Origin: a virus
Taxonomy: Duplodnaviria; Heunggongvirae; Uroviricota; Caudoviricetes
Virus record (IMG/VR): IMGVR_UViG_2917413769_000009
Span: 1 to 44,211 of that record
DNA: 44,211 nt
Direction: 5' to 3' (one strand)
Below the pieces are notes generated by a model that ran no database searches, was not told the DNA's origin, and saw only the letters and a program-made list of their open reading frames with translations. Each line of letters opens with the position of its first letter. The stretch's first letter is position 1. Position numbers and translations under genes: made by a program. Positions 1-38,580 of this stretch are shown here, piece after piece.

Positions 1-1929
1 TTATTCCTCCAATTGTTTAAGACTGCGGCTGCGAATCTCTTGTTGCAGCTTCTCGATCACTTCATTTACGTCCATGCTTCCCAGGTCTTTACCACGGCGG
101 GTGCGAACGGCAACTTTGCCAGATTCCACCTCTTTATCACCACAGACCAGCATATATGGGACGCGACGCAAAGTGTGCTCGCGGATTTTAAAGCCAATCT
201 TCTCATTTCTCAAGTCTGCTTTAACACGAATGCCCGCATTTGATAGTTTTTGCGTCAATTCGTTAACGTATTCAGACTGTGAATCCGTAATGTTCATGAT
301 AACAACCTGAACCGGCGCAAGCCAGGTCGGGAAGAAACCAGCGAACTCTTCGGTCAGGATACCGATGAAACGTTCCATCGACCCAAGAATTGCACGGTGA
401 ATCATTACCGGAACCTTACGCTCGTTGTCTTCGCCTACATAGGAAGCGCTCAGACGAGACGGTAAGGAGAAGTCCAGCTGTACTGTACCGCACTGCCATG
501 CACGATCGAGGCAGTCATACAGGGTAAATTCAATTTTCGGACCGTAGAACGCGCCTTCACCCAGTTGATACTCAAACGGGATGTTGTTTTCTTCCAGCGC
601 AACTGCCAGGTCCGCCTCAGCACGATCCCACATTTCGTCACTGCCAATACGTTTTTCAGGACGAGTGGAAAGCTTGACCACGATCTTCTCGAAGCCAAAA
701 GTGCTGTACATATCATAGACTAAACGGATACATCCGTTAACTTCATCGCGAATTTGTTCTTCAGTACAGAAGATATGCGCGTCATCCTGGGTAAAACCAC
801 GCACGCGCATCAGGCCGTGCAGGGATCCTGACGGCTCGTTACGGTGGCAGCTACCGAACTCGGCCATACGCAGCGGCAGATCGCGATACGACTTCAGCCC
901 CTGGTTAAAGATTTGTACGTGACCCGGACAGTTCATCGGCTTAATGCAGTATTCACGGTTCTCAGAAGAGGTGGTGAACATTGCATCTTTATAGTTTTCC
1001 CAGTGACCGGTTTTTTCCCACAGGACGCGGTCCATCATAAACGGGCCTTTAACTTCCTGATACTGGTACTCTTTCAGTTTAGAGCGAACGAACACTTCCA
1101 GTTCACGGAAGATGGTCCAGCCGTCATTATGCCAGAACACCATACCCGGCGCTTCTTCCTGCATATGGTACAGGTCGAGCTGTTTACCGATTTTACGGTG
1201 GTCGCGTTTAGCGGCTTCTTCCAGACGCTGCAGATACGCGTTGAGGGCTTTTTTATCTGCCCACGCAGTACCATAAATACGTTGCAACATTTTGTTGTTG
1301 CTGTCGCCGCGCCAGTAGGCCCCTGCCGTTTTCATCAGTTTGAAATGGTGGCAGAAACGCATATTCGGTACGTGCGGACCGCGGCACATATCGACATATT
1401 CTTCGTGGAAATAGAGGCCAGGCTGGTCATCATGGGCGATGTTTTCGTCCAGGATGGAGACTTTATAGCTCTCGCCGCGTTTAACGAACGTTTCACGCGC
1501 TTCGTGCCAGCTGACTTTCTTCTTAATGACGTCGTAGTTTTTCTCAGCAAGCTCATGCATCCGCTTCTCGAGTGCTTCGACATCTTCCTGGGTTAACGTG
1601 CGGTCAAGATCAACGTCGTAATAGAAACCGTTGTCAATAACCGGGCCGATTGCCATTTTGGTATGCGGCCAAAGTTGTTTAATTGCGTGCCCTAACAGGT
1701 GCGCACAGGAGTGACGAATGATCTCCAGACCTTCTTCGTCTTTAGCGGTAATGATCGCCAGTTTAGCGTCGTTTTCAATCAAATCGCACGCATCTACCAG
1801 TTCGCCATTAACGCGCCCTGCGATACAGGCTTTCGCCAGACCTGGACCAATGTCCAGCGCAACATCCATGGGGCTTACAGCGTGGTCGTAATGGCGTTGG
1901 CTGCCATCAGGAAGAGTAATAACAGGCAT
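1..1929 (-). CDS. thrS: threonine--tRNA ligase (ThrRS)
   Basis: 642-aa ORF, complete (stop at 1-3, ATG at 1927-1929). Translation [16 protein letters not shown]...[10 protein letters not shown] matches the E. coli ThrRS sequence as I recall it over its full length. Confidence 0.97.
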
Positions 1930-3814: not shown

Positions 3815-6213
3815 TTAATACTCTCCCCCATTTGTGCCTCAGTTAATTCTTTATGCCAAATGCGTAAATTTTTCACATGACCGAACAGGTGTCTGTTGCC
3901 ACTGGATGATTGTCCACCGATATTAATATTACCGGCAGTATAACGTTGCAATGTATGCAGAGACGGGGAGCTGCTACCTAAAATTCCATCAACAACAACC
4001 TGCAACTGTTTATCTTCTGTAAACTTAAAGCCAGTAACAAATTTCCTTTTCTCTCTATTCCCATATGCTTTATATTCTGTTTTTGTTCCTTTGCCATTGG
4101 TGATAATTAGCCTTTTACCACGAGTGGTAAAACCAAAATACATATAACTTTCATCAGAAACTTCAGTCGTCGCCCCTGTAATTGAGATATTAAGCAAACG
4201 CGCAGAGCCTTCTAAATTAGGCATTTCAGAATCCCAATTAACATTAACTTCCATGAGAACACTAATTGGTGGAGTTGCCCAGTTGAAAGGTATAGGTATG
4301 ATTACCTGGTCACTTGCTCTCGTGGCACCGACCTCTGTTGTGATGATAAAAGATGAGGCGTTTAGTCCCTTTTCGAATTGAGGGGTTGTTAACATTAATT
4401 TATCGCCAGACTTGATTGATCGTTGATGTGCTCCAAACTCAAAACGCCCATACATATTTTTGGCTTCTGGTGATTTGTAGGTAAACTCAACACGAATCCA
4501 TCCATTAGACTCTCTGAATATGTTATAAGTTGCCGCCTCACCTCCAGAATAACTCAACATATCGCCAGTCTCGCAATCAATATATGCGCCAGCGGTCAGT
4601 GTGTTACTTGAGCCATCGTCGTTAACATATGATATTCTTGGACGCAACGTGATAATACCATCCCCACTTACTTTTTTAACTCTGCAGGATAAAGTAACTG
4701 ATTCATTTGCCGAAACTGAAATAACCCTGGTATATCCAGTAGAAATTAATGTCGCCCTTTCAGTTGTGGATGTTTCTTTAACGCCAAACAAACCATAACT
4801 GAAACCATACTCATCAACTCCCGTGGTAATAGTTAAGTTAGCAGTGTCATAGTTCCACGATGCTGGTGTATTCGTATAAGAAAAAGTATTCGTTCTCTGA
4901 CCTTCAATGAGCAGACCATCTTTTTCAAAACGTGGTTCATTTATCACTGATTCAGCAAAACACCCAGACTTATCTATATACGTTGCAGTTGACGCCCTGG
5001 TAAATGAAACAACCTTTTCAGACGGCAATGTAATAACATCGTCACCAACTGTGATGCTCTTATACCCAGGAGCAAACCCGGTAATCATATCCAGTGAATC
5101 GTTAAACGGTATCCACACATCAGGCAGCGGCTGTAAGACATATTTATACGGCTCTGCTGCCTGGCTTGCATACTCTCTGGCTGCGTCTTCACTTTCTTTA
5201 GCTGCCGTCTGGCTTGCAGCGGATGCTTTCGCCGAGTTCGCCGCTGCAGTCTCGCTTGTCTTTGCATTGGTTTCACTGGTTTTTGCTGCTTTTTGGCTGT
5301 TGGCTGATGCAGTGGCAGAAGCAGCCGCCGCGCTTGCAGAACCAGCTGCGGCACTCTCGCTTTGGGCTGCTGCATCCTGACTGTTTTTCGCCGCAGTTTC
5401 GCTGGCTTTGGCATTTGTTTCGCTGGTCTTCGCTGCCGCCTGGCTGGACTTTGCGTTTGTTTCGCTCGTTTTCGCGGCTTTCTGGCTGTTAGCCGCAGCT
5501 GTTGCTGATCCAGCTGCTGAAGTCGCCGAACCAGCTGCAGCATTCTCGCTTTCGGCTGCTGCATCCTGACTGCTTTTCGCCGCAGTTTCACTGGCTTTGG
5601 CATTTGTTTCGCTGGTCTTCGCTGCCGTCTGGCTGGACTTTGCGTTGGTTTCGCTCGTCTTTGCGGCTGTCTCGCTGTTTTTCGCGTTGGTTTCTGATTT
5701 TTTGGCTGCTGTCGCGGAGTTTGCCGATGCAGTCTGTGAGGTCGCTGCCGCCTGTGCGCTGTTAGCTGCATTCGTTTCTGAGGTTTTCGCCGCATTTTTC
5801 GATGATGCCGCTGCAGTTTCGGATTTCTTTGCCGCCGCTGCGCTCTGAGAGGCGGCTTCGGCGTTGCGTGCCGCTTCTTCCACCATTTCCTCAAAACGAC
5901 GCAATGCCTCAGGCATGACATCATCTTCCGTCATGGCACCGAGAAAATCATTCAGCGTACCTGGTCTGGAACCTTCATAGACGGTAATGATCCCGGCATG
6001 TGAAGGCGGAAAACCTTCAACCAGCAGGGTGACGCTGTACTGGCCATACTCAACATCCATGCTGTAACGCCCGGCTTCATCCGGATTTTCAGAGGCTACC
6101 GTGTTCACCAGTACCGTGGTGCTGTTACGCTTTGCCTTCAGTTGAATAGTGCAGTTCTGTATTGGTTTTCCCGCACCATCTTTCAGCACACCTGAGATTT
6201 TTACTGCTGCCAT
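3811..6213 (-). CDS. stf: side tail fibre protein (lambda Stf-like N-terminus, Ala/Ser/Thr-rich repeat shaft, LamG/ConA-like C-terminal domain)
   Basis: N-terminus MAAVKISGVLKDGAGKPIQNCTIQLKA...YSMDVEYGQYSV matches lambda Stf as recalled; start set at the ATG at 6213 (the ORF track starts at a GTG two codons upstream). C-terminus ...HLFGHVKNLRIWHKELTEAQM resembles the end of LamG-type jelly-roll domains. Confidence 0.85.
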   Translation of the reverse strand: MAAVKISGVLKDGAGKPIQNCTIQLKAKRNSTTVLVNTVASENPDEAGRYSMDVEYGQYSVTLLVEGFPPSHAGIITVYEGSRPGTLNDFLGAMTEDDVMPEALRRFEEMVEEAARNAEAASQSAAAAKKSETAAASSKNAAKTSETNAANSAQAAATSQTASANSATAAKKSETNAKNSETAAKTSETNAKSSQTAAKTSETNAKASETAAKSSQDAAAESENAAAGSATSAAGSATAAANSQKAAKTSETNAKSSQAAAKTSETNAKASETAAKNSQDAAAQSESAAAGSASAAAASATASANSQKAAKTSETNAKTSETAAANSAKASAASQTAAKESEDAAREYASQAAEPYKYVLQPLPDVWIPFNDSLDMITGFAPGYKSITVGDDVITLPSEKVVSFTRASTATYIDKSGCFAESVINEPRFEKDGLLIEGQRTNTFSYTNTPASWNYDTANLTITTGVDEYGFSYGLFGVKETSTTERATLISTGYTRVISVSANESVTLSCRVKKVSGDGIITLRPRISYVNDDGSSNTLTAGAYIDCETGDMLSYSGGEAATYNIFRESNGWIRVEFTYKSPEAKNMYGRFEFGAHQRSIKSGDKLMLTTPQFEKGLNASSFIITTEVGATRASDQVIIPIPFNWATPPISVLMEVNVNWDSEMPNLEGSARLLNISITGATTEVSDESYMYFGFTTRGKRLIITNGKGTKTEYKAYGNREKRKFVTGFKFTEDKQLQVVVDGILGSSSPSLHTLQRYTAGNINIGGQSSSGNRHLFGHVKNLRIWHKELTEAQMGESIK
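5200..5880. repeat. tandem imperfect coding repeats within the stf shaft
   Basis: Two near-identical blocks at about 5365-5480 and 5560-5680, giving the duplicated protein blocks AAKTSETNAKSSQ...AAKTSETNAKASETAAK(S/N)SQDAAA(E/Q)SE(N/S)AAAGSA. They generate long spurious ORFs on both strands. Confidence 0.7.
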
Positions 6214-6224
6214 ATCCACTCCAC

Positions 6225-6250
6225 AAAAAAGCCCGCCTGAACCGGCGGGC
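6225..6250 (-). terminator. rho-independent terminator-like hairpin downstream of lom
   Basis: Plus-strand GCCCGCC-TGAACC-GGCGGGC (6231-6250) preceded by A6 (6225-6230), i.e. hairpin followed by U6 on the minus-strand transcript. Confidence 0.55.
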
Positions 6251-6277
6251 TGTCATAACACTGTGTTACCTGGCTAA

Positions 6278-6877
6278 TCAGAATTTATAACCGACACCCA
6301 CGATGAAACCGTCAGTGCGCCAGTCGCCACTGCCGGAACCTTCATAAGCAAGGTCAATGGCCATGGATTCGGTCGGGTTAAACTGCACGCCAGCCCCCCA
6401 CGCCAGAGACGTGTTGCTGTGGCGACCGCCATCACTTCCGGTCAGCACATCGTGCGTTTTCCCCTTGTTGTCAGTTACGCGGAGATAATCCCCGGAGAAC
6501 GTCGAAACACGGCTGTAAGCCACACCCGCCATCGCATAAGCACTGAACCATTCATTCACGCGTACAGACGGCCCCGCCATCACGCTGAACCAGCGGTTAC
6601 GCACTGAATCTTCATGCCAGCGGGTATCGCTGTAACGGGTAATCTGGCGATTCTTGTCTCCTGCATAGCTGAATGACGTCACCAGCCCCAGCGTGTCCGT
6701 AAATTCATAACGGTATTTCACGTTAATGCCCTTCAGGTCATCGTTGCCGGGCATATCAGTATGGGACTGAAGATACCCGCCGCTTAGAGTGGACTGATGC
6801 TCTGCTGCACTCGCTGGCGTACCAGCGGCGACCAGCCAGACTACTGCAGACAGAATAACAGCACATAATTTACGCAT
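6278..6877 (-). CDS. lom: Lom/Ail/PagC-family outer-membrane beta-barrel protein
   Basis: 199 aa with signal peptide [24 protein letters not shown], alternating beta-strand pattern and C-terminal ...GVGYKF. Sits in the lambda lom position between J and stf. Confidence 0.9.
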
Positions 6878-33330: not shown

Positions 33331-34148
33331 GCAATCCCCCTGTCTGCAAACTTCCCTTCCCGAACTCCCGTTAACGAGTCTTCCCTCAACAGGTAATCAA
33401 AATCAGCCGTCCAGCCCGTGTCGTTGTCTCCGAAGTAAAACGGCTTGGCCTGATGCACAAACGCCCTGACATACGCTCTGAAACCGTCTACGTTTGGCGT
33501 TTTCAGTTGTGGGATGATTTTCTTCAGGCGGCGTTTTCGTTTCTCGTTGACCGCAACAGCGTGTGGAAGTCTGTCACCGACTTCGGTGTTGTAGGCGTTC
33601 AGGAAGGATTCGTAGTCGATTCGTTCTGCCTTGCGACGTTCAGGTTTAACCTGCCCATCGCCGCCCCCGTTAGGGGGTAAGGGGGTATTTGTATTTATTG
33701 TCTTTTGTATATTGTCTTTTGTGTTTAGCTGACTTGGCTTATACCCATTAGCCGACTCGGCTAATGTTTTATTAGCTGTTTTAGCTAATGTTAAGCTGTC
33801 CTGGCTAATCCACTGAGAAACCACCTTGTTCACTCCTATTTTCACGCCATCAGCAATGAGGAATTTACGCTCAATAAGCTGGCGCTTGGCAGCGCAAACA
33901 TGAGTGTGATGAATACCTGTCATGGCTGCTATCTGCGTATTTGTGAGTCGATCCATCGGCTTATTGAATCCGTATGTCTTGCGCATGATAGCGAGCATCA
34001 CCTTCAACTGCCGGACGGTTAAATCAGCCATCAGCAGACTGTCGGTAATCTCGTTAGCAACGCGCATGAAACCATCTTCGGTATCTGCCACGCGATGCTC
34101 CACGACCTCCAGTTGAGGCCTGTAATCAGCTAACTTAACGACGCCCAT
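33327..34148 (-). CDS. O: replication initiator (O-like)
   Basis: 273 aa with ori iterons inside the coding sequence and a proline/glycine linker ([10 protein letters not shown]); ATGA-coupled to the helicase gene. Confidence 0.88.
33685..33808. other. origin of replication: four iterons (consensus TTAGCYGAYTYGGCTAA) followed by an AT-rich tract, inside O
   Basis: Iterons at 33725-33741, 33748-33764, 33772-33788, 33791-33808, each an inverted repeat; AT-rich tract 33685-33724; same architecture as lambda ori. Confidence 0.65.
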
Positions 34149-34296
34149 GTTTCACTCCTGCTTTGGCTAGTCTGTAAACACCAACAAGGCGCTCTGCGAA
34201 CGCCCTGTTATTTGCTGCGGCTACCACTAATCCCTCAGGTGAATCAGGGTGTCGAATCTCTTCTTTTTCCTGGTATTTCTTACGACGTTTTGTCAT
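34135..34296 (-). CDS. small basic ORF (53 aa) between cII and O
   Basis: [53 protein letters not shown] with SD AGGAG 5 nt upstream; its stop overlaps the O start. Confidence 0.35.
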   Translation of the reverse strand: MTKRRKKYQEKEEIRHPDSPEGLVVAAANNRAFAERLVGVYRLAKAGVKHGRR

Positions 34297-34328
34297 AATT
34301 ACTCCTGTGGATTGATCCAGTAATTCCC

Positions 34329-34625
34329 TCAGAATTTCATATCAATTTGCTTAGAGTCCCCGGCGGCCACCGGGGATTTTTTCTTTGTGATTCCATCAAG
34401 CGCATACTTAAAAGCCCTGCTAATCGGACTGATGTCTGATGCCATTCCGAAAGCACACAAGACCGAAGCAATAAATCTCCAGTCCGTTCTGCTTATCTTC
34501 GATTCATGACAGCCAATCATCTTTGCCAGACCGCGCTGTGTAAGCGTTGACAGGTTGATGAGTAAATCTGTTTCTGCGCGATCAACGTCGCGCTGTGATA
34601 GTTTGCTGTAACTTGTTCGTTCCAT
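34329..34625 (-). CDS. cII: CII-family transcriptional activator
   Basis: 98 aa in the cro-cII-O position; HTH region and C-terminus ...TKKKSPVAAGDSKQIDMKF parallel lambda CII (...TNKKRPAATERSEQIQMEF). Confidence 0.85.
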   Translation of the reverse strand: MERTSYSKLSQRDVDRAETDLLINLSTLTQRGLAKMIGCHESKISRTDWRFIASVLCAFGMASDISPISRAFKYALDGITKKKSPVAAGDSKQIDMKF

Positions 34626-34710
34626 TTCTTAAGATTTCCAATAGTGAATAGTTAGTTGAAAGGTATGCGTTGAAACGCATATGGCCTTAGTTGGTCAGAT
34701 ATCTTGGGAC

Positions 34711-34756
34711 TCGCTTTTCAGCGACGTAGGACGAATGTCCGTTGTTACAAAGAGCG
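34711..34756 (-). promoter_or_regulatory. nutR (boxA CGCUCUUUGUAACAA plus boxB hairpin UCGCUGAAAAGCGA)
   Basis: Between cro and cII on the minus strand; the boxB-like hairpin shares the core ACGU(G/C)GCUGAAAAGC with the element downstream of PL. Confidence 0.5.
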
Positions 34757-34763
34757 GGGTTAC

Positions 34764-34973
<210 letters not shown>

Positions 34974-34984
34974 TTAGTACATAC

Positions 34985-35060
34985 AGTCATTATCACCGCC
35001 AGAGGTAAAAGAGTCAACATCTGCGGTGTTAGATATTTATCCCCTGCGGTGATAGATTTA
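34985..35060. promoter_or_regulatory. right operator region OR1-OR2-OR3 with divergent PR and PRM
   Basis: OR1 TATCACCGCCAGAGGTA (34991-35007), OR2 CAACATCTGCGGTGTTA (35015-35031), OR3 TATCCCCTGCGGTGATA (35038-35054); PR -35 TTGACT / -10 GATAAT on the minus strand; leaderless cI start. Confidence 0.9.
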
Positions 35061-35061
35061 A

Positions 35062-35778
<717 letters not shown>

Positions 35779-35864: not shown

Positions 35865-36443
35865 TTGAGTATACCAACTGTCTCTCTATGGAATGAGATG
35901 GGGTTAATCCCCCCAATAGACGAGGCTGATCCTACAAGCCATACTCGTTCCCCATACAAAATGGATATAGTACGCTTTGTTAGTACTTTTTCGCTTAGCC
36001 CTGCAAGGATTAAAATCCTTAAGGGTTTTCTTAATTTTCGTGTTTCACTCACTCAAGCAGGGCTGGTTGAAGGTTTTCAGTGGGTAGATGGAAGCTTCAC
36101 AGAACATATTGAACTTATTGAAAAAAGGCCACCGAATGATGTCGATGTTGTGACCTTTTTTCAATTCAGTAATGGCGATAATGATGCAATCGTAATCGGT
36201 AGAAAGCCAGAGCTATTTGATCATGATTTTGTTAAGAAGGAGTTTTTCGTAGATTCCTACTTCCAAGAACTTAATCTACCAAGTCATGAGCTTGTTGAAA
36301 TGACTGTATATTGGTACAGTATGTGGGCACATAGACGCGATCTGTCGTGGAAGGGATTTATCCAAATCCCGTTAAACCCACAACTTGATGTTGTGGCAAT
36401 GACTATACTTAATTCGGCTGCTACTGAGGGGGTCAAACAATGA
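35865..36443 (+). CDS. hypothetical protein A of the cI-linked two-gene cassette (rexA position); possible nucleotidyltransferase-like fold
   Basis: 192-aa ORF from a TTG start (AAGG 7 nt upstream), or 181 aa from the ATG at 35898. Not hydrophobic; motif GFQWVDGSF-x14-DVDVV. Confidence 0.7.
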   Translation: MSIPTVSLWNEMGLIPPIDEADPTSHTRSPYKMDIVRFVSTFSLSPARIKILKGFLNFRVSLTQAGLVEGFQWVDGSFTEHIELIEKRPPNDVDVVTFFQFSNGDNDAIVIGRKPELFDHDFVKKEFFVDSYFQELNLPSHELVEMTVYWYSMWAHRRDLSWKGFIQIPLNPQLDVVAMTILNSAATEGVKQ

Positions 36444-37309
36444 ATCGTAATGATTATGTTTTCGCTCTCAGTGAGCGCGAGCAAATAAGTAATCTATTAA
36501 AAAATATGCCAACAAGTCATTCTATTAGCCGAAAAAGCTTAGAAGACCGTCTGGAGAAAGTTGAGCGATTAATTTCACAAGCTGACGTTCGAGAACATGA
36601 ACCTACGCATGCTGTGTTAACTTTTAGAGGCCCAACAGTAGTTGGCACGCATGGCATTTCAGCAGTATTTGGAACAAAAGCTATATCTTGTTTTAATGAT
36701 GCAATAGCTTACTTGGCAACCTCTTTCAATGGCCCACTTCCTGCATCAGGCAAGATACCAAACATAGAAAATAATCATCTCATGATTACCGCGTCAGCCC
36801 GTGGTTCTTTCGGATTCGTACTTGAAGAGTTTAGACCTGATGCTCCTCTTGAATTCGATGAAGAAACCCCAGTAGCAAAAGCTATTAATAAGGCCAGAAA
36901 AATATTTCAGGCAAGCTTGGATAATGATGATGAAGAATTGTCTGATGCTATAGAAAACTTAGACTCTCGGGCCTTAGATAAAATCAGAGCGTTCATTCAT
37001 TATCTGCATGAAAATAAAACAGTTTTTACACTTAAAAGCCAAGGTTTTAGCATCGTTTTTAGAGAGCCAAAACAGCTTGAAGCTGTATATCAACATCTCA
37101 GCAATGATAATATTCAGCAGGAAAAAATTATTGAGAACGTTATATTTTTGGGAACTCTTCCTAACAAGCGCCAATGTGAATTTATAGTTTTAGGTAACAC
37201 TGATATCAGAACCGCTAGCATTGACAAAGCTGTAGATGACCCAGATATTATAAACAAGCACTTAGGAAGCGTTGCAACAGCCACGTTCCTGAAAAAAAAC
37301 TGTTGGTAA
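36440..37309 (+). CDS. hypothetical protein B of the cI-linked two-gene cassette (rexB position)
   Basis: 289-aa ORF, ATG overlaps the stop of gene A (ATGA), SD GAGGGGG; AT-rich; no TM segments; the only motif noted is R-x6-H (RAFIHYLH) in a helical stretch. Confidence 0.7.
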   Translation: MNRNDYVFALSEREQISNLLKNMPTSHSISRKSLEDRLEKVERLISQADVREHEPTHAVLTFRGPTVVGTHGISAVFGTKAISCFNDAIAYLATSFNGPLPASGKIPNIENNHLMITASARGSFGFVLEEFRPDAPLEFDEETPVAKAINKARKIFQASLDNDDEELSDAIENLDSRALDKIRAFIHYLHENKTVFTLKSQGFSIVFREPKQLEAVYQHLSNDNIQQEKIIENVIFLGTLPNKRQCEFIVLGNTDIRTASIDKAVDDPDIINKHLGSVATATFLKKNCW

Positions 37310-37385
37310 GGGCAAACCCAGATACACTCTGGTTTCTCGACCTCAATGGGATATTAAATCTATCGATTAGAATGAGCCCCTTCAA

Positions 37386-37412
37386 CCCGGCCTCCGCGCC
37401 GGGTTTTCTTTT
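37386..37412 (+). terminator. rho-independent terminator after the cI-linked cassette (t_imm-like)
   Basis: CCCGGC-CTCCGC-GCCGGG followed by TTTTCTTTT. Confidence 0.65.
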
Positions 37413-37560
37413 ACCATCACCCCGTCAAAAACACACCTAACGAATTGTATTTATTGAATAAATATAAATCACACTTATCACATTGCGCAATTCAGCTCCT
37501 ACACATCCAGACTAGCTCTGCAAAACTTTAAAAAATAAATCAATAGTAAAAACATGCACA

Positions 37561-37632
37561 TAACCATTTGCGGTAATATTTTATCTCTAGCGGTGTTGAC
37601 GAAAATACCTCCAGCGGTGATACTAAACACAT
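37561..37632 (+). promoter_or_regulatory. left operator OL1-3 and promoter PL
   Basis: OL3 TAACCATTTGCGGTAATA (37561-37578), OL2 TATCTCTAGCGGTGTTG (37582-37598), OL1 TACCTCCAGCGGTGATA (37606-37622); PL -35 TTGACG (37596-37601), -10 GATACT (37619-37624), 17-bp spacer; start region ATCAGCAGG as in lambda. Confidence 0.85.
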
Positions 37633-37670
37633 CAGCAGGACGCTGGAAGCCAAATGGAACAGACTGGCAG

Positions 37671-37715
37671 GCTCTTTAAACAACGTCGACTCTCGACTAC
37701 GTGGCTGAAAAGCCA
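37671..37715 (+). promoter_or_regulatory. nutL (boxA GCUCUUUAAACAA plus boxB hairpin UGGCUGAAAAGCCA)
   Basis: About 40-85 nt downstream of the PL start; the boxB-like hairpin shares its core with the nutR element. Confidence 0.5.
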
Positions 37716-37813
37716 GATCACCCAACCACATAAGCTGTGGGATGCAATGCCGAAGCAACCGTCTCAGGAGGAGCTTCGAGATTGCATCGCCAAAGTTTAT
37801 TCGGGAGGAATCT

Positions 37814-38086
37814 ATGTCCAGAAAAACAGAATTTAAAGGCACCGCAGCTTCTCGCCGTAGAGCACGTCGCGCAAATCTGCAAAGTCAGGAGGCGATCAGC
37901 TCCGACAAGCTACACAGGCCAACCCCTTCACGAGTGGTCTTGCAATGCAAGCGCAAACCAGCAATGAGAGCAGAAGTTATAACTCTGACAACGTTGACCA
38001 GAAAATATGAAGGTTCAACTTGTCTTCCGAACGTAGCTCTTTACGCGGCAGGCTACCGGAAATCAAAACAACTGACAGCGAGGTAA
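37814..38086 (+). CDS. N: N-like early antiterminator (arginine-rich motif)
   Basis: First gene of the PL operon; MSRKTEFKGTAASRRRARRANLQSQEAI... has an N-terminal arginine-rich motif like lambdoid N proteins; SD GGGAGG. Not lambda N itself. Confidence 0.7.
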   Translation: MSRKTEFKGTAASRRRARRANLQSQEAISSDKLHRPTPSRVVLQCKRKPAMRAEVITLTTLTRKYEGSTCLPNVALYAAGYRKSKQLTAR

Positions 38087-38144
38087 CCTGCACTGTTCGC
38101 CAGAAAATGAAATTAGGCAGCAAACCACTTATTTGAGGTGATAT

Positions 38145-38231
38145 ATGGAAGAAGAATTTGAAGAGTTCGAAGAGCATCCGCAGGATGTGATGGAACAATA
38201 CCAGGACTACCCTTATGACTACGACTATTGA
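38145..38231 (+). CDS. acidic 28-aa peptide (lambda orf28-like position)
   Basis: MEEEFEEFEEHPQDVMEQYQDYPYDYDY, overlapping the ral start in another frame. Confidence 0.45.
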   Translation: MEEEFEEFEEHPQDVMEQYQDYPYDYDY

Positions 38232-38415
38232 TAAGAATCAATGGTGTGGACAATTCAAGCGATGCAATGGATGCAAGCTGCAATCGGAATGCATGGTTAA
38301 GCCTGAAGAAATGTTTCCTGTAATGGAAGATGGGAAATATGTCGATAAATGAGCAATACGAACGACGGCAATGATTGCCAGAGAACTTGGTAAACAGAAC
38401 AACAAGGCTGCCTGA
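38215..38415 (+). pseudogene. ral: ral (restriction alleviation) interrupted by an in-frame TGA at 38350-38352
   Basis: MTTTIDKNQWCGQFKRCNGCKLQSECMVKPEEMFPVMEDGKYVDK-stop-AIRTTAMIARELGKQNNKAA; lambda Ral as recalled has Trp (TGG) at this codon and runs on to the same C-terminus. Confidence 0.6.
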
Positions 38416-38549
38416 TGGTGGCCTTTATTTTTGGCATAAACAACAGAATAAACACAGCACTGTGTATTCATTCCAACGAGTGAATACACGGAGCAATGTC
38501 GCTCGTAACTAAACAGGAGCCGACTTGTTCTGATTATTGGAAATCTTCT

Positions 38550-38580
38550 TTGCCCTCCAATGTGAGGGCGATTTTTTATC
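38550..38580 (+). terminator. rho-independent terminator within the PL operon (tL-like)
   Basis: GCCCTC-CAATGT-GAGGGC followed by GATTTTTTAT (stem 38552-38569, T-run 38572-38577). Confidence 0.55.

What the first reader, a model, noticed from the sequence alone, without database searches (positions are those of the whole stretch)
37671..38086. Lambda-type immunity combined with a non-lambda N and nut sites
cI, cro, OR and OL are lambda-like, but the first PL gene encodes an N-like protein with a different arginine-rich motif (TAASRRRARRANLQ). Both nut candidates (37702-37715 and minus-strand 34711-34724) share a boxB core GCUGAAAAGC that differs from lambda boxB. This suggests a recombination joint between the immunity and antitermination specificities.
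Basis: partly seen in the sequence, partly recalled or inferred. Interest (0 to 1): 0.45.

Follow-up and report, generated by a model that had tools for sequence, protein, structure and literature searches.

The report
VT2-Sakai-type N beside lambda-type immunity
This prophage joins a lambda-like repressor switch to the antitermination protein N and two RNA target sites of the Shiga-toxin phage VT2-Sakai, which is ordinary module shuffling among lambda-like phages and not a new system.

Summary
Cro protein is identical to lambda Cro, and cI differs at 13 of 237 residues. The first PL gene (37814-38086, 90 aa) is an N protein (Pfam N_peptide, E 3e-32) identical to N of phage VT2-Sakai.

Both nut sites exist. 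Each has boxA, a spacer hairpin, UACG, and a boxB with a 5-bp stem and a GAAA tetraloop. The composite motif occurs twice in the window; none is expected by chance.

Lambda similarity ends and VT2-Sakai similarity begins inside CATCAGCAGGACGC (37630-37643), just after the PL start. On the other side lambda similarity ends about 14 nt past cro.

In 160 related loci the 90-aa N always goes with GAAA boxB loops, and the 127-aa HK97/H-19B/933W N always goes with GACAA. This holds whatever the repressor type. Two natural hybrid N proteins show that the loop type follows the arginine-rich motif.

The arrangement is not new. HK97, mEp234 and HK106 already combine a near-lambda cI/cro region (mEp234 and HK106 come from the Degnan 2007 survey of lambda-immunity phages) with a non-lambda N. 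The exact configuration recurs in 8 complete E. coli genomes.

The only mildly interesting point is that boxB here is a true GNRA tetraloop.

The parts
34329..34625 (-). cII gene (98 aa), HK97/933W-like
   Evidence: Pfam Phage_CII E 2e-31. 93-95% nt identity to HK97 and 933W.
34708..34756 (-). nutR: boxA CGCUCUUUG (34756-34748), spacer hairpin GGACAUUCGUCC (34740-34729), UACG, boxB UCGCU-GAAA-AGCGA (34724-34711)
   Evidence: Folds as two hairpins. 95% identical to HK97 and mEp234 nutR, but one C is missing from the boxB loop, GACAA to GAAA. The mEp234 counterpart is annotated nutR boxA/boxB. Identical to VT2-Sakai nutR.
34764..34964 (-). cro, protein identical to lambda Cro
   Evidence: Pfam Cro E 6e-35. 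0 of 66 differences from lambda.
34991..35054 (.). OR1-OR2-OR3 with PR and PRM, lambda-like
   Evidence: OR1 is identical to lambda; OR2 has 3 differences and OR3 has 1. PR is TTGACT-17-GATAAT at 35017-34989.
35065..35778 (+). cI repressor, 237 aa, 94.5% identical to lambda cI
   Evidence: HTH_3 plus Peptidase_S24. 13 differences from lambda and 11 from HK97.
35865..37309 (+). Two accessory genes in the rexAB slot: a DUF6932 protein (192 aa) and an unknown protein (289 aa). They sit in the immunity region but are not part of the N system.
   Evidence: No match in lambda, HK97, VT2-Sakai or 933W.
37384..37405 (+). Timm-like intrinsic terminator ending the cI operon
   Evidence: Terminator scan. 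The homologous position is annotated Timm in mEp234.
37562..37624 (+). OL3-OL2-OL1 and PL (-35 TTGACG at 37596-37601, -10 GATACT at 37619-37624)
   Evidence: Comparison with lambda operators. Promoter scan.
37630..37643 (+). Joint CATCAGCAGGACGC at the start of the PL transcript: last bases shared with lambda and HK97, first bases shared with VT2-Sakai
   Evidence: BLAST segment ends. Alignment A1. Megablast hits begin at 37626-37632.
37670..37718 (+). nutL: boxA GCUCUUUAA (37671-37679), spacer hairpin GUCGACUCUCGAC (37685-37697), UACG, boxB UGGCU-GAAA-AGCCA (37702-37715)
   Evidence: Folding. Identical to VT2-Sakai nutL. Present in 79 of 79 loci with this N and enough flank.
37814..38086 (+). 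N antitermination protein, 90 aa. ARM is SRRRARRANLQ. The C-terminus CLPNVALYAAGYRKSKQLTAR is P22/HK97-like.
   Evidence: Pfam PF25694 E 3.4e-32. phrog_271. 100% identical to VT2-Sakai N.
38083..38136 (+). Out-of-frame remnant of a lambda/21-type N C-terminus (VTCTVRQKMKLGSKPLI*)
   Evidence: compared with the lambda N end ITCSGRQKIKGKSIPLI*. Conserved in HK97 and mEp234.
38404..38571 (+). Two intrinsic-terminator-like hairpins downstream of N (38404-38425 and 38550-38571), the likely first targets of N-modified RNA polymerase in the PL operon
   Evidence: Terminator scan. The role is inferred from their position.

Best explanation
The region is a working lambdoid early-regulation cassette built from two separately inherited modules.

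Module 1 is a diverged lambda-type immunity module: cro, OR, cI, OL and PL.

Module 2 is the N antitermination module of phage VT2-Sakai: the N gene plus its cognate nutL and nutR, which bracket the immunity module.

Inferred mechanism:
1. After derepression, PL and PR transcripts carry nutL and nutR.
2. The N-terminal arginine-rich motif of N binds the boxB hairpin, a 5-bp stem closed by U-A with a GAAA (GNRA) tetraloop.
3. Host NusB/NusE bind the consensus-like boxA.
4. The P22-like C-terminus of N modifies RNA polymerase so that it reads through the terminators downstream of N and of cro.

Shown here: sequence identity, nut architecture, boxB base pairing with compensatory changes, and co-variation of ARM type with loop type.

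Inferred from homology: RNA binding, Nus-factor use and terminator read-through.

The module boundaries lie at the start of the PL transcript (37630-37643) and just past cro (about 34750-34769). These are typical lambdoid exchange points.
For: Membership and identity:
- N is in family PF25694 and is 100% identical to VT2-Sakai N. nutL and nutR are also identical to VT2-Sakai.
- The mosaic map shows sharp changes of nearest relative.

nut sites:
- Both lie in the canonical positions: in the PL leader upstream of N, and between cro and cII. None is expected by chance.
- The boxB helix is paired in 100% of 80 cells across 16 nut sites. Three of 5 pairs show compensatory changes. No shuffle out of 500 reaches the covariation score.
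- The spacer hairpin followed by boxB folds in all 19 homologous nut sites. H-19B nutR is likewise described as having two hairpins (PMC3526286).

Co-variation:
- The 90-aa N goes with GAAA at nutL in 79 of 79 loci and at nutR in 74 of 80.
- The 127-aa HK97/H-19B-type N goes with GACAA in 79 of 79 and 75 of 80.
- This holds across at least four repressor types.

Hybrid and distant N proteins:
- P0046 has a short ARM on an H-19B-type body and goes with GAAA.
- P0027 has an H-19B-like ARM on a Sakai-type body and goes with GACAA.
- Relatives from Pantoea and Cronobacter keep a GNRA tetraloop (GAAA, and GCAA once).

Functional residues: R3, R15 and R18, whose mutation inactivates H-19B N (PMC3526286), are conserved in this N.
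Against: - No experiment on this N or these nut sites was found in the searchable literature.
- There is no sequence match to solved N peptide structures and no Rfam family.
- One natural contig, L047, pairs this N and nutL with a genuine lambda nutR, GCCCUGAAAAAGGGC. Either specificity is looser than the co-variation suggests, or that prophage is defective.
- Most of the 160 loci are near-identical E. coli prophages, so the counts overstate the number of independent events. The independent support comes from the roughly 8 divergent loci.
Confidence: 0.85

Rival explanations
1. The GAAA and GACAA boxB types are functionally interchangeable. On this view the 90-aa N does not define a separate antitermination specificity from the HK97/H-19B/933W N, and the co-variation merely reflects linkage within a compact region.
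For: - The two nutR types differ by one loop nucleotide in an otherwise 95% identical segment.
- Lambda N is reported to recognise the GNRA fold, with the extra loop base extruded (PMC12027372).
- L047 combines this N with lambda nutR.
Against: - nutL and nutR lie on opposite sides of a freely exchanged immunity module, yet both always match the ARM type.
- The two hybrid N proteins switch loop type with the ARM and not with the rest of the protein or the flanking DNA. L167 nutL has HK97-like flanks but a GAAA boxB.
- In P22 the looped-out C of GACAA contacts the peptide (PMC12550061).
Confidence: 0.3
2. The cassette is an inactive relic in a defective prophage: the N ORF and nut sites are preserved by recent descent, not by function.
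For: The window is a prophage-like segment and nothing here tests activity. The OL/PL region is only 75% identical to lambda.
Against: - The ORF is intact and identical to N of VT2-Sakai, a named Stx2-converting phage.
- Promoters, operators, both nut sites and the downstream terminators are all intact.
- Cro protein is unchanged despite about 8% DNA divergence from lambda, which indicates purifying selection.
- The configuration recurs in 8 unrelated complete genomes and 5 viral contigs.
Confidence: 0.1
3. The similarity pattern reflects uneven divergence from one ancestor and not recombination between immunity and N modules.
For: OL/PL is much more diverged from lambda (75%) than cro-cI (91%), so rates clearly vary along the region.
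Against: - Similarity to lambda ends abruptly at 37643. From 37630 the sequence is 95.8% identical to VT2-Sakai, whose cI is unrelated in its N-terminal half.
- The same N/nut module is found with at least four repressor types.
Confidence: 0.05

Closest known systems
Phage VT2-Sakai (Stx2-converting, AP000363) N gene with nutL and nutR
   Same: The N protein is 100% identical. The nutL and nutR sequences (boxA, spacer hairpin, GAAA boxB) are identical. N is the first PL gene.
   Different: VT2-Sakai has a different repressor/Cro module; only the C-terminal half of its cI matches, at 86.6%. It also carries different accessory genes between cI and N.
Phages HK97, mEp234 and HK106 (cI/cro region near-identical to lambda)
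   Same: They have a lambda-like cro-OR-cI (about 91.7% nt) joined to a non-lambda N and nut. Their nutR-cII-replication segment is the same as in the window (93%). Their nut architecture is the same, and so is the C-terminal 20 aa of N. The mEp234 GenBank record annotates its nut sites as putative and carries a 'boundary sequence 4' feature past the N-side end of the region.
   Different: Their N is the 127-aa H-19B/933W type, with a longer ARM (RRRERLKAKALANGVLARE). Their boxB loops are GACAA pentaloops (nutL GCGCU-GACAA-AGCGC). The genes between cI and PL also differ.
H-19B N-NUT system (experimentally studied; PMC3526286)
   Same: The nut layout is boxA, spacer hairpin, boxB. The ARM core is SRRR-R, with R3, R15 and R18 conserved. 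nutR lies between cro and cII, overlapping the tR1 region.
   Different: The H-19B loop is GACAA and its N is 127 aa. Overall N identity to the window protein is about 41%.
Lambda N with boxB (GNRNA pentaloop that adopts a GNRA fold)
   Same: Same genetic logic and positions. There is an arginine-rich N-terminus, a 5-bp boxB stem with a U-A closing pair, and a G..AA loop.
   Different: The lambda boxB stem is GCCCU/AGGGC with a 5-nt loop, and the boxA-boxB spacer is short and unstructured. The lambda N C-terminus is unrelated apart from a fossil after the stop codon.
P22 gp24 (N) with boxB GACAA (PDB 1A4T)
   Same: The C-terminal RNA-polymerase-interaction segment is homologous (LP.VALYAAG.RKSKQ.TAR). 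It belongs to the same Pfam family.
   Different: The P22 ARM is GNAKTRRHERRRK. Its loop is a pentaloop with a looped-out C that contacts the peptide (PMC12550061). Here there is no fifth loop base.

Membership tests
Lambdoid N antitermination proteins (Pfam PF25694 N_peptide / phrog_271) | Sequence membership above the curated threshold | tested here: met
   111.3 bits against a cut-off of 27.9, E 3.4e-32, covering residues 1-90. phrog_271 at 4e-25.
Lambdoid N antitermination proteins (Pfam PF25694 N_peptide / phrog_271) | N-terminal arginine-rich motif | tested here: met
   Residues 13-19 are SRRRARR. They align with the ARMs of HK97/H-19B, lambda and P22 N.
Lambdoid N antitermination proteins (Pfam PF25694 N_peptide / phrog_271) | First gene of the PL operon, downstream of OL/PL | tested here: met
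   PL is at 37596-37624 and N starts at 37814, with no ORF of family significance in between.
Lambdoid N antitermination proteins (Pfam PF25694 N_peptide / phrog_271) | Cognate nut sites (boxA plus boxB hairpin) in both the PL and PR transcripts | tested here: met
   nutL is 37670-37718 (+) and nutR is 34708-34756 (-)..
Lambdoid N antitermination proteins (Pfam PF25694 N_peptide / phrog_271) | boxB RNA binding and Nus-dependent terminator read-through | not testable with these tools
   Only comparative support is available: ARM type co-varies with loop type.
Lambda N/boxB specificity class | boxB GCCCU-GA(A/G)AA-AGGGC pentaloop, and the lambda ARM MDAQTRRRERRAEKQAQW | tested here: not met
   The stems are UGGCU and UCGCU, the loop is GAAA, and the ARM is different.
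HK97/H-19B/933W N specificity class | 127-aa N with ARM RSRRRERLKAK... and a GACAA boxB loop | tested here: not met
   The window N is 90 aa, lacks the 7-residue insertion, and both loops are GAAA.
VT2-Sakai N specificity class | 90-aa N with ARM ASRRRARRANLQ, with nutL UGGCU-GAAA-AGCCA and nutR UCGCU-GAAA-AGCGA | tested here: met
   Identical protein and identical nut sequences. 79 of 79 and 74 of 80 loci.
Lambda immunity group | cI and Cro closely related to lambda, with conserved recognition helices | tested here: met
   Cro is identical. cI has 13 of 237 differences, none in residues 33-52.
Lambda immunity group | Six operators matching the lambda 17-bp sites | tested here: inconclusive
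   OR1 is identical, and the others differ at 1-3 positions. Whether lambda cI and this cI cross-repress cannot be decided from sequence.
Lambda immunity group | Lysogens immune to lambda, and the reverse | not testable with these tools
   This needs superinfection tests.

The most novel reading that the evidence does not exclude
The VT2-Sakai-type arginine-rich motif would define a distinct N-boxB recognition class that reads a true GNRA tetraloop (GAAA, and GCAA once). The structurally solved natural classes use pentaloops (lambda, P22) or a hexaloop (phi21). On this reading, a one-nucleotide loop insertion or deletion (GAAA versus GACAA), together with a short ARM change, is the natural switch between two antitermination specificities that circulate among the same E. 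coli prophages. I found no paper describing this, but much of the older literature is not in the searchable library.
Probability: 0.45. Interest if true: 0.4.

Novelty: already known. Interest (0 to 1): 0.18.

Why it matters
It matters little for discovery. The finding is a clean, well-delimited example of lambdoid module exchange. It shows that the N gene and both nut sites travel as one specificity unit even though they bracket a separately exchangeable immunity module.

It has two practical uses. First, annotation: N starts at 37814 and not 37742, both nut sites can be placed exactly, and this N should be called VT2-Sakai-type. Second, the ARM-to-loop co-variation table (short ARM with a GNRA tetraloop, H-19B-type ARM with GACAA) is a ready-made hypothesis for peptide-RNA recognition work, or for orthogonal N/boxB tethering tools.

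Tried and rejected
- Rfam scan of the whole window: no family.
- Sequence search of solved structures with N: no hit.
- NCBIfam: no model hit for N or for the two accessory proteins.
- I first took HK97 and mEp234 to carry the same N, because they top the region-wide search. Alignment shows they share only the last ~127 nt of N and the downstream sequence, and that their nutL and ARM differ. I rejected that reading.
- I also considered 933W as the source of N. Its N is the 127-aa H-19B type. Rejected.
- Degnan et al. 2007 (PMID 17376085) is not held in the library. I relied on their GenBank annotation instead.
- Literature searches for a description of VT2-Sakai nut sites or of a natural tetraloop boxB found nothing specific.
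- The MAFFT alignment A4 put the L170 boxB out of register, so I left L170 out of the formal pair count.
- The spacer hairpin could not be scored with the count of structure pairs, because nutL and nutR arms align in different registers. I checked it by folding each sequence separately.

Full report
**What is in the sequence**

In this window the early region runs opposite to the usual lambda map. The order is:
- cII, 34329-34625 (-)
- cro, 34764-34964 (-)
- OR
- cI, 35065-35778 (+)
- two accessory genes, 35865-37309 (+)
- a Timm-like terminator, 37384-37405
- OL/PL
- a 190-nt leader
- the N-like gene ending at 38086

The consensus scan finds PL (TTGACG-17-GATACT, 37596-37624) and PR (35017-34989). 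It also finds two terminator-like hairpins downstream of N.

**Lambda-like immunity: confirmed**

- The segment 34750-35778 is 91.4% identical to lambda, and about equally similar to HK97, mEp234, HK106, SfI and others.
- Cro protein is identical to lambda Cro.
- cI differs at 13 of 237 positions, none between residues 33 and 52.
- OR1 is identical to lambda. OR2, OR3, OL1, OL2 and OL3 differ at 3, 1, 3, 1 and 2 positions.
- The OL/PL segment is more diverged, at 75% over 37384-37643.
- Whether this still gives lambda immunity in vivo cannot be settled from sequence.

**The N gene**

- The ORF listed by the tool starts at 37742 (114 aa), which is how VT2-Sakai annotates it.
- The ATG at 37814 follows GGAGG. 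It aligns with the start of the HK97 N (MTRRTQFKG versus MSRKTEFKG) and with most database homologues, which are 90 aa.
- The 90-aa product matches Pfam N_peptide PF25694 (111 bits, cut-off 27.9) and phrog_271.
- It is 100% identical to the N of VT2-Sakai. IMG/VR locus L014 is a 60,942-bp contig, the same length as AP000363, and appears to be that phage.
- About 450 IMG/VR loci encode a relative.
- It is not the HK97/mEp234/933W/H-19B N. That protein is 127 aa and shares only the C-terminal ~20 residues and the ARM core.

**The nut sites**

Both have the same plan: boxA (G/CGCUCUUU), a short linker ACAACG, a 4-5-bp spacer hairpin, UACG, one base, and then boxB.
- nutL boxB is UGGCU-GAAA-AGCCA (37702-37715).
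- nutR boxB is UCGCU-GAAA-AGCGA (34724-34711, minus strand).
- Each folds as a 5-bp stem with a GAAA tetraloop.
- The composite pattern occurs only at these two places, with none in 100 shuffles.
- The layout of two hairpins after boxA matches what is described for H-19B nutR (PMC3526286).
- It differs from lambda, which has a short unstructured spacer and a GCCCU-GA(A/G)AA-AGGGC pentaloop.

**Where the joints are**

- 34000-34750 (replication genes, cII, nutR) is HK97/933W-like (93-95%).
- 34750-35778 is shared with lambda and HK97.
- 35779-37380 matches none of the reference phages.
- 37384-37643 is weakly lambda-like.
- 37630-38150 is VT2-Sakai-like (95.8%).

The lambda and VT2-Sakai segments overlap only in CATCAGCAGGACGC, which is the beginning of the PL transcript. 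Relative to HK97, the window is collinear from the replication genes through cI. It then differs in three ways: the accessory genes, the nutL-N segment, and a single missing C in the nutR boxB loop, GACAA to GAAA.

**Test of the specificity idea**

I fetched 80 IMG/VR loci for each of the two N types and scored the hairpins.

| N type | nutL loop | nutR loop |
|---|---|---|
| 90-aa N | GAAA, 79 of 79 with enough flank | GAAA, 74 of 80 |
| 127-aa N | GACAA, 79 of 79 | GACAA, 75 of 80 |

Of the five 90-aa-N loci lacking a GAAA nutR (besides L047), four have too little flank to reach it; the fifth, L052, has enough flank yet shows no such hairpin and is unexplained.

This holds across repressors that are 45%, 65% or 90-99% identical to the window's cI, or unrelated to it. 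So N and both nut sites stay matched while the immunity module between them is exchanged.

Most of these loci are near-identical E. coli prophages. I therefore also took divergent homologues from the protein search:
- N proteins 50-83% identical, from E. coli, Cronobacter and Pantoea-type contigs, all carry a short ARM (RRR.RRA.LQ). All have GNRA tetraloop boxBs: GAAA, and GCAA at one Cronobacter nutR.
- Hybrid P0046 has a short ARM on an H-19B-type body. It has a GAAA boxB inside otherwise HK97-like nutL flanks (L167).
- Hybrid P0027 has an H-19B-like ARM, with the LK..A insertion, on a Sakai-type body. It has GACAA at both nut sites (L170).

The loop type therefore follows the first ~30 residues of N.

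Across 16 nut sites the boxB helix is paired in all 80 cells. Three of 5 pairs carry compensatory changes, and no shuffle out of 500 reaches the covariation score. The spacer hairpin also folds in all 19 sites, with different stems (GUCGA/UCGAC, GGUGA/UCACC, GGAC/GUCC).

Residues R3, R15 and R18, whose mutation inactivates H-19B N (PMC3526286), are conserved in this N.

**How it most likely works**

By homology with lambda, P22 and H-19B:
1. The ARM binds boxB on the nascent PL and PR transcripts.
2. NusB/NusE bind boxA.
3. The P22-like C-terminus (CLPNVALYAAGYRKSKQLTAR) holds RNA polymerase in a termination-resistant state. This allows read-through of the terminators after N and after cro.

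Lambda N reads a GNRNA pentaloop that adopts a GNRA fold with one base extruded, and it needs the closing U-A pair (PMC12027372). P22 N reads GACAA with the C looped out and touching the peptide (PMC12550061). Here the loop is already a four-base GNRA loop with the same U-A closing pair. That would be the minimal version of the same recognition. This step is inference.

**Counter-evidence**

One short contig, L047, carries this N and a GAAA nutL together with a genuine lambda nutR and lambda-type cII. Either this N tolerates the lambda pentaloop or that prophage is crippled.

**Comparison with what is known**

- Pairing a lambda-type cI/cro region with a heterologous N is already documented. 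HK97, mEp234 and HK106 have a near-lambda cI/cro (HK97 cI differs from lambda cI at 2 residues) with the H-19B-type N. The GenBank records from the Degnan et al. 2007 survey of wild phages with lambda immunity annotate their nut sites and a boundary sequence at the end of the sequenced region.
- The N/nut module here is that of VT2-Sakai.
- The full configuration, including the two accessory genes, recurs at 98.1-98.5% identity in 8 complete E. coli genomes, for example CE10. There PGAP already names the gene 'transcriptional antitermination N peptide'. It also recurs in 5 IMG/VR contigs.
- No named phage in the phage collection carries the whole arrangement.

**Verdict**

The one point worth an experiment is whether the short-ARM, GNRA-tetraloop pair is a separate antitermination specificity from the GACAA class.

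Noticed in passing
window 35865-37309 (+): Two overlapping genes occupy the slot that rexA/rexB hold in lambda, between cI and the Timm terminator. One is a DUF6932 protein (192 aa; PADLOC candidate PDC-M63A at 2e-10; phrog_9194). The other is a 289-aa protein with no Pfam, NCBIfam or PADLOC match (phrog_18731). This is a plausible prophage-encoded defence pair. The same pair travels with this immunity region in 8 E. coli genomes and 5 IMG/VR contigs.
   Followed up: partly
window 38083-38136 (+): Overlapping the N stop codon, in another frame, lies VTCTVRQKMKLGSKPLI*. This is a fossil of a lambda/21-type N C-terminus; lambda N ends ITCSGRQKIKGKSIPLI*. It implies that a P22-like C-terminal segment was spliced in front of an older N end. 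The fossil is also conserved in HK97 and mEp234.
   Followed up: partly
L047 (IMGVR_UViG_2531839234_000006), nutR near 1040-1100 (-), N at 3877-4146: A natural chimera: VT2-Sakai-type N and a GAAA nutL, combined with a lambda-like cI/cro and a genuine lambda nutR (CGCTCTTACACATTCCAGCCCTGAAAAAGGGC) and lambda-type cII. The nut sites on the two arms are mismatched.
   Followed up: partly
L167 (GCA_043367165.1, N at 6001-6363) and L170 (Logan ERR13967538, N at 1880-2173): Natural hybrid N proteins. P0046 joins a short ARM to an H-19B-type body and goes with a GAAA boxB. P0027 joins an H-19B-like ARM to a Sakai-type body and goes with GACAA boxB at both nut sites. So there is recombination inside the N gene, and boxB follows the ARM.
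   Followed up: yes
L174 (Cronobacter, GCA_011605535.1) nutR 4538-4585 (-): This nutR boxB loop is GCAA and not GAAA, while nutL keeps GAAA. It is still a GNRA tetraloop, which fits recognition of the fold more than of the exact loop sequence.
   Followed up: no
window 37665-37725 and 34700-34762 (-): When boxA is included, the minimum-energy fold pairs boxA (GCUCUUU) with the 3' half of boxB (AAAAGC) and encloses the spacer hairpin. This is an alternative structure that competes with the boxB hairpin. It is not better than shuffled sequence (z about -1.2).
   Followed up: no
L092 position ~84 (-): A locus with HK97-type N and GACAA nut sites carries an additional UCGCU-GAAA-AGCGA hairpin about 3 kb beyond nutR, near the contig end. 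I did not examine it.
   Followed up: no
window 34764-34964 (-): The cro DNA is about 8% diverged from lambda, yet the protein is identical in all 66 residues. This indicates strong purifying selection on Cro.
   Followed up: no
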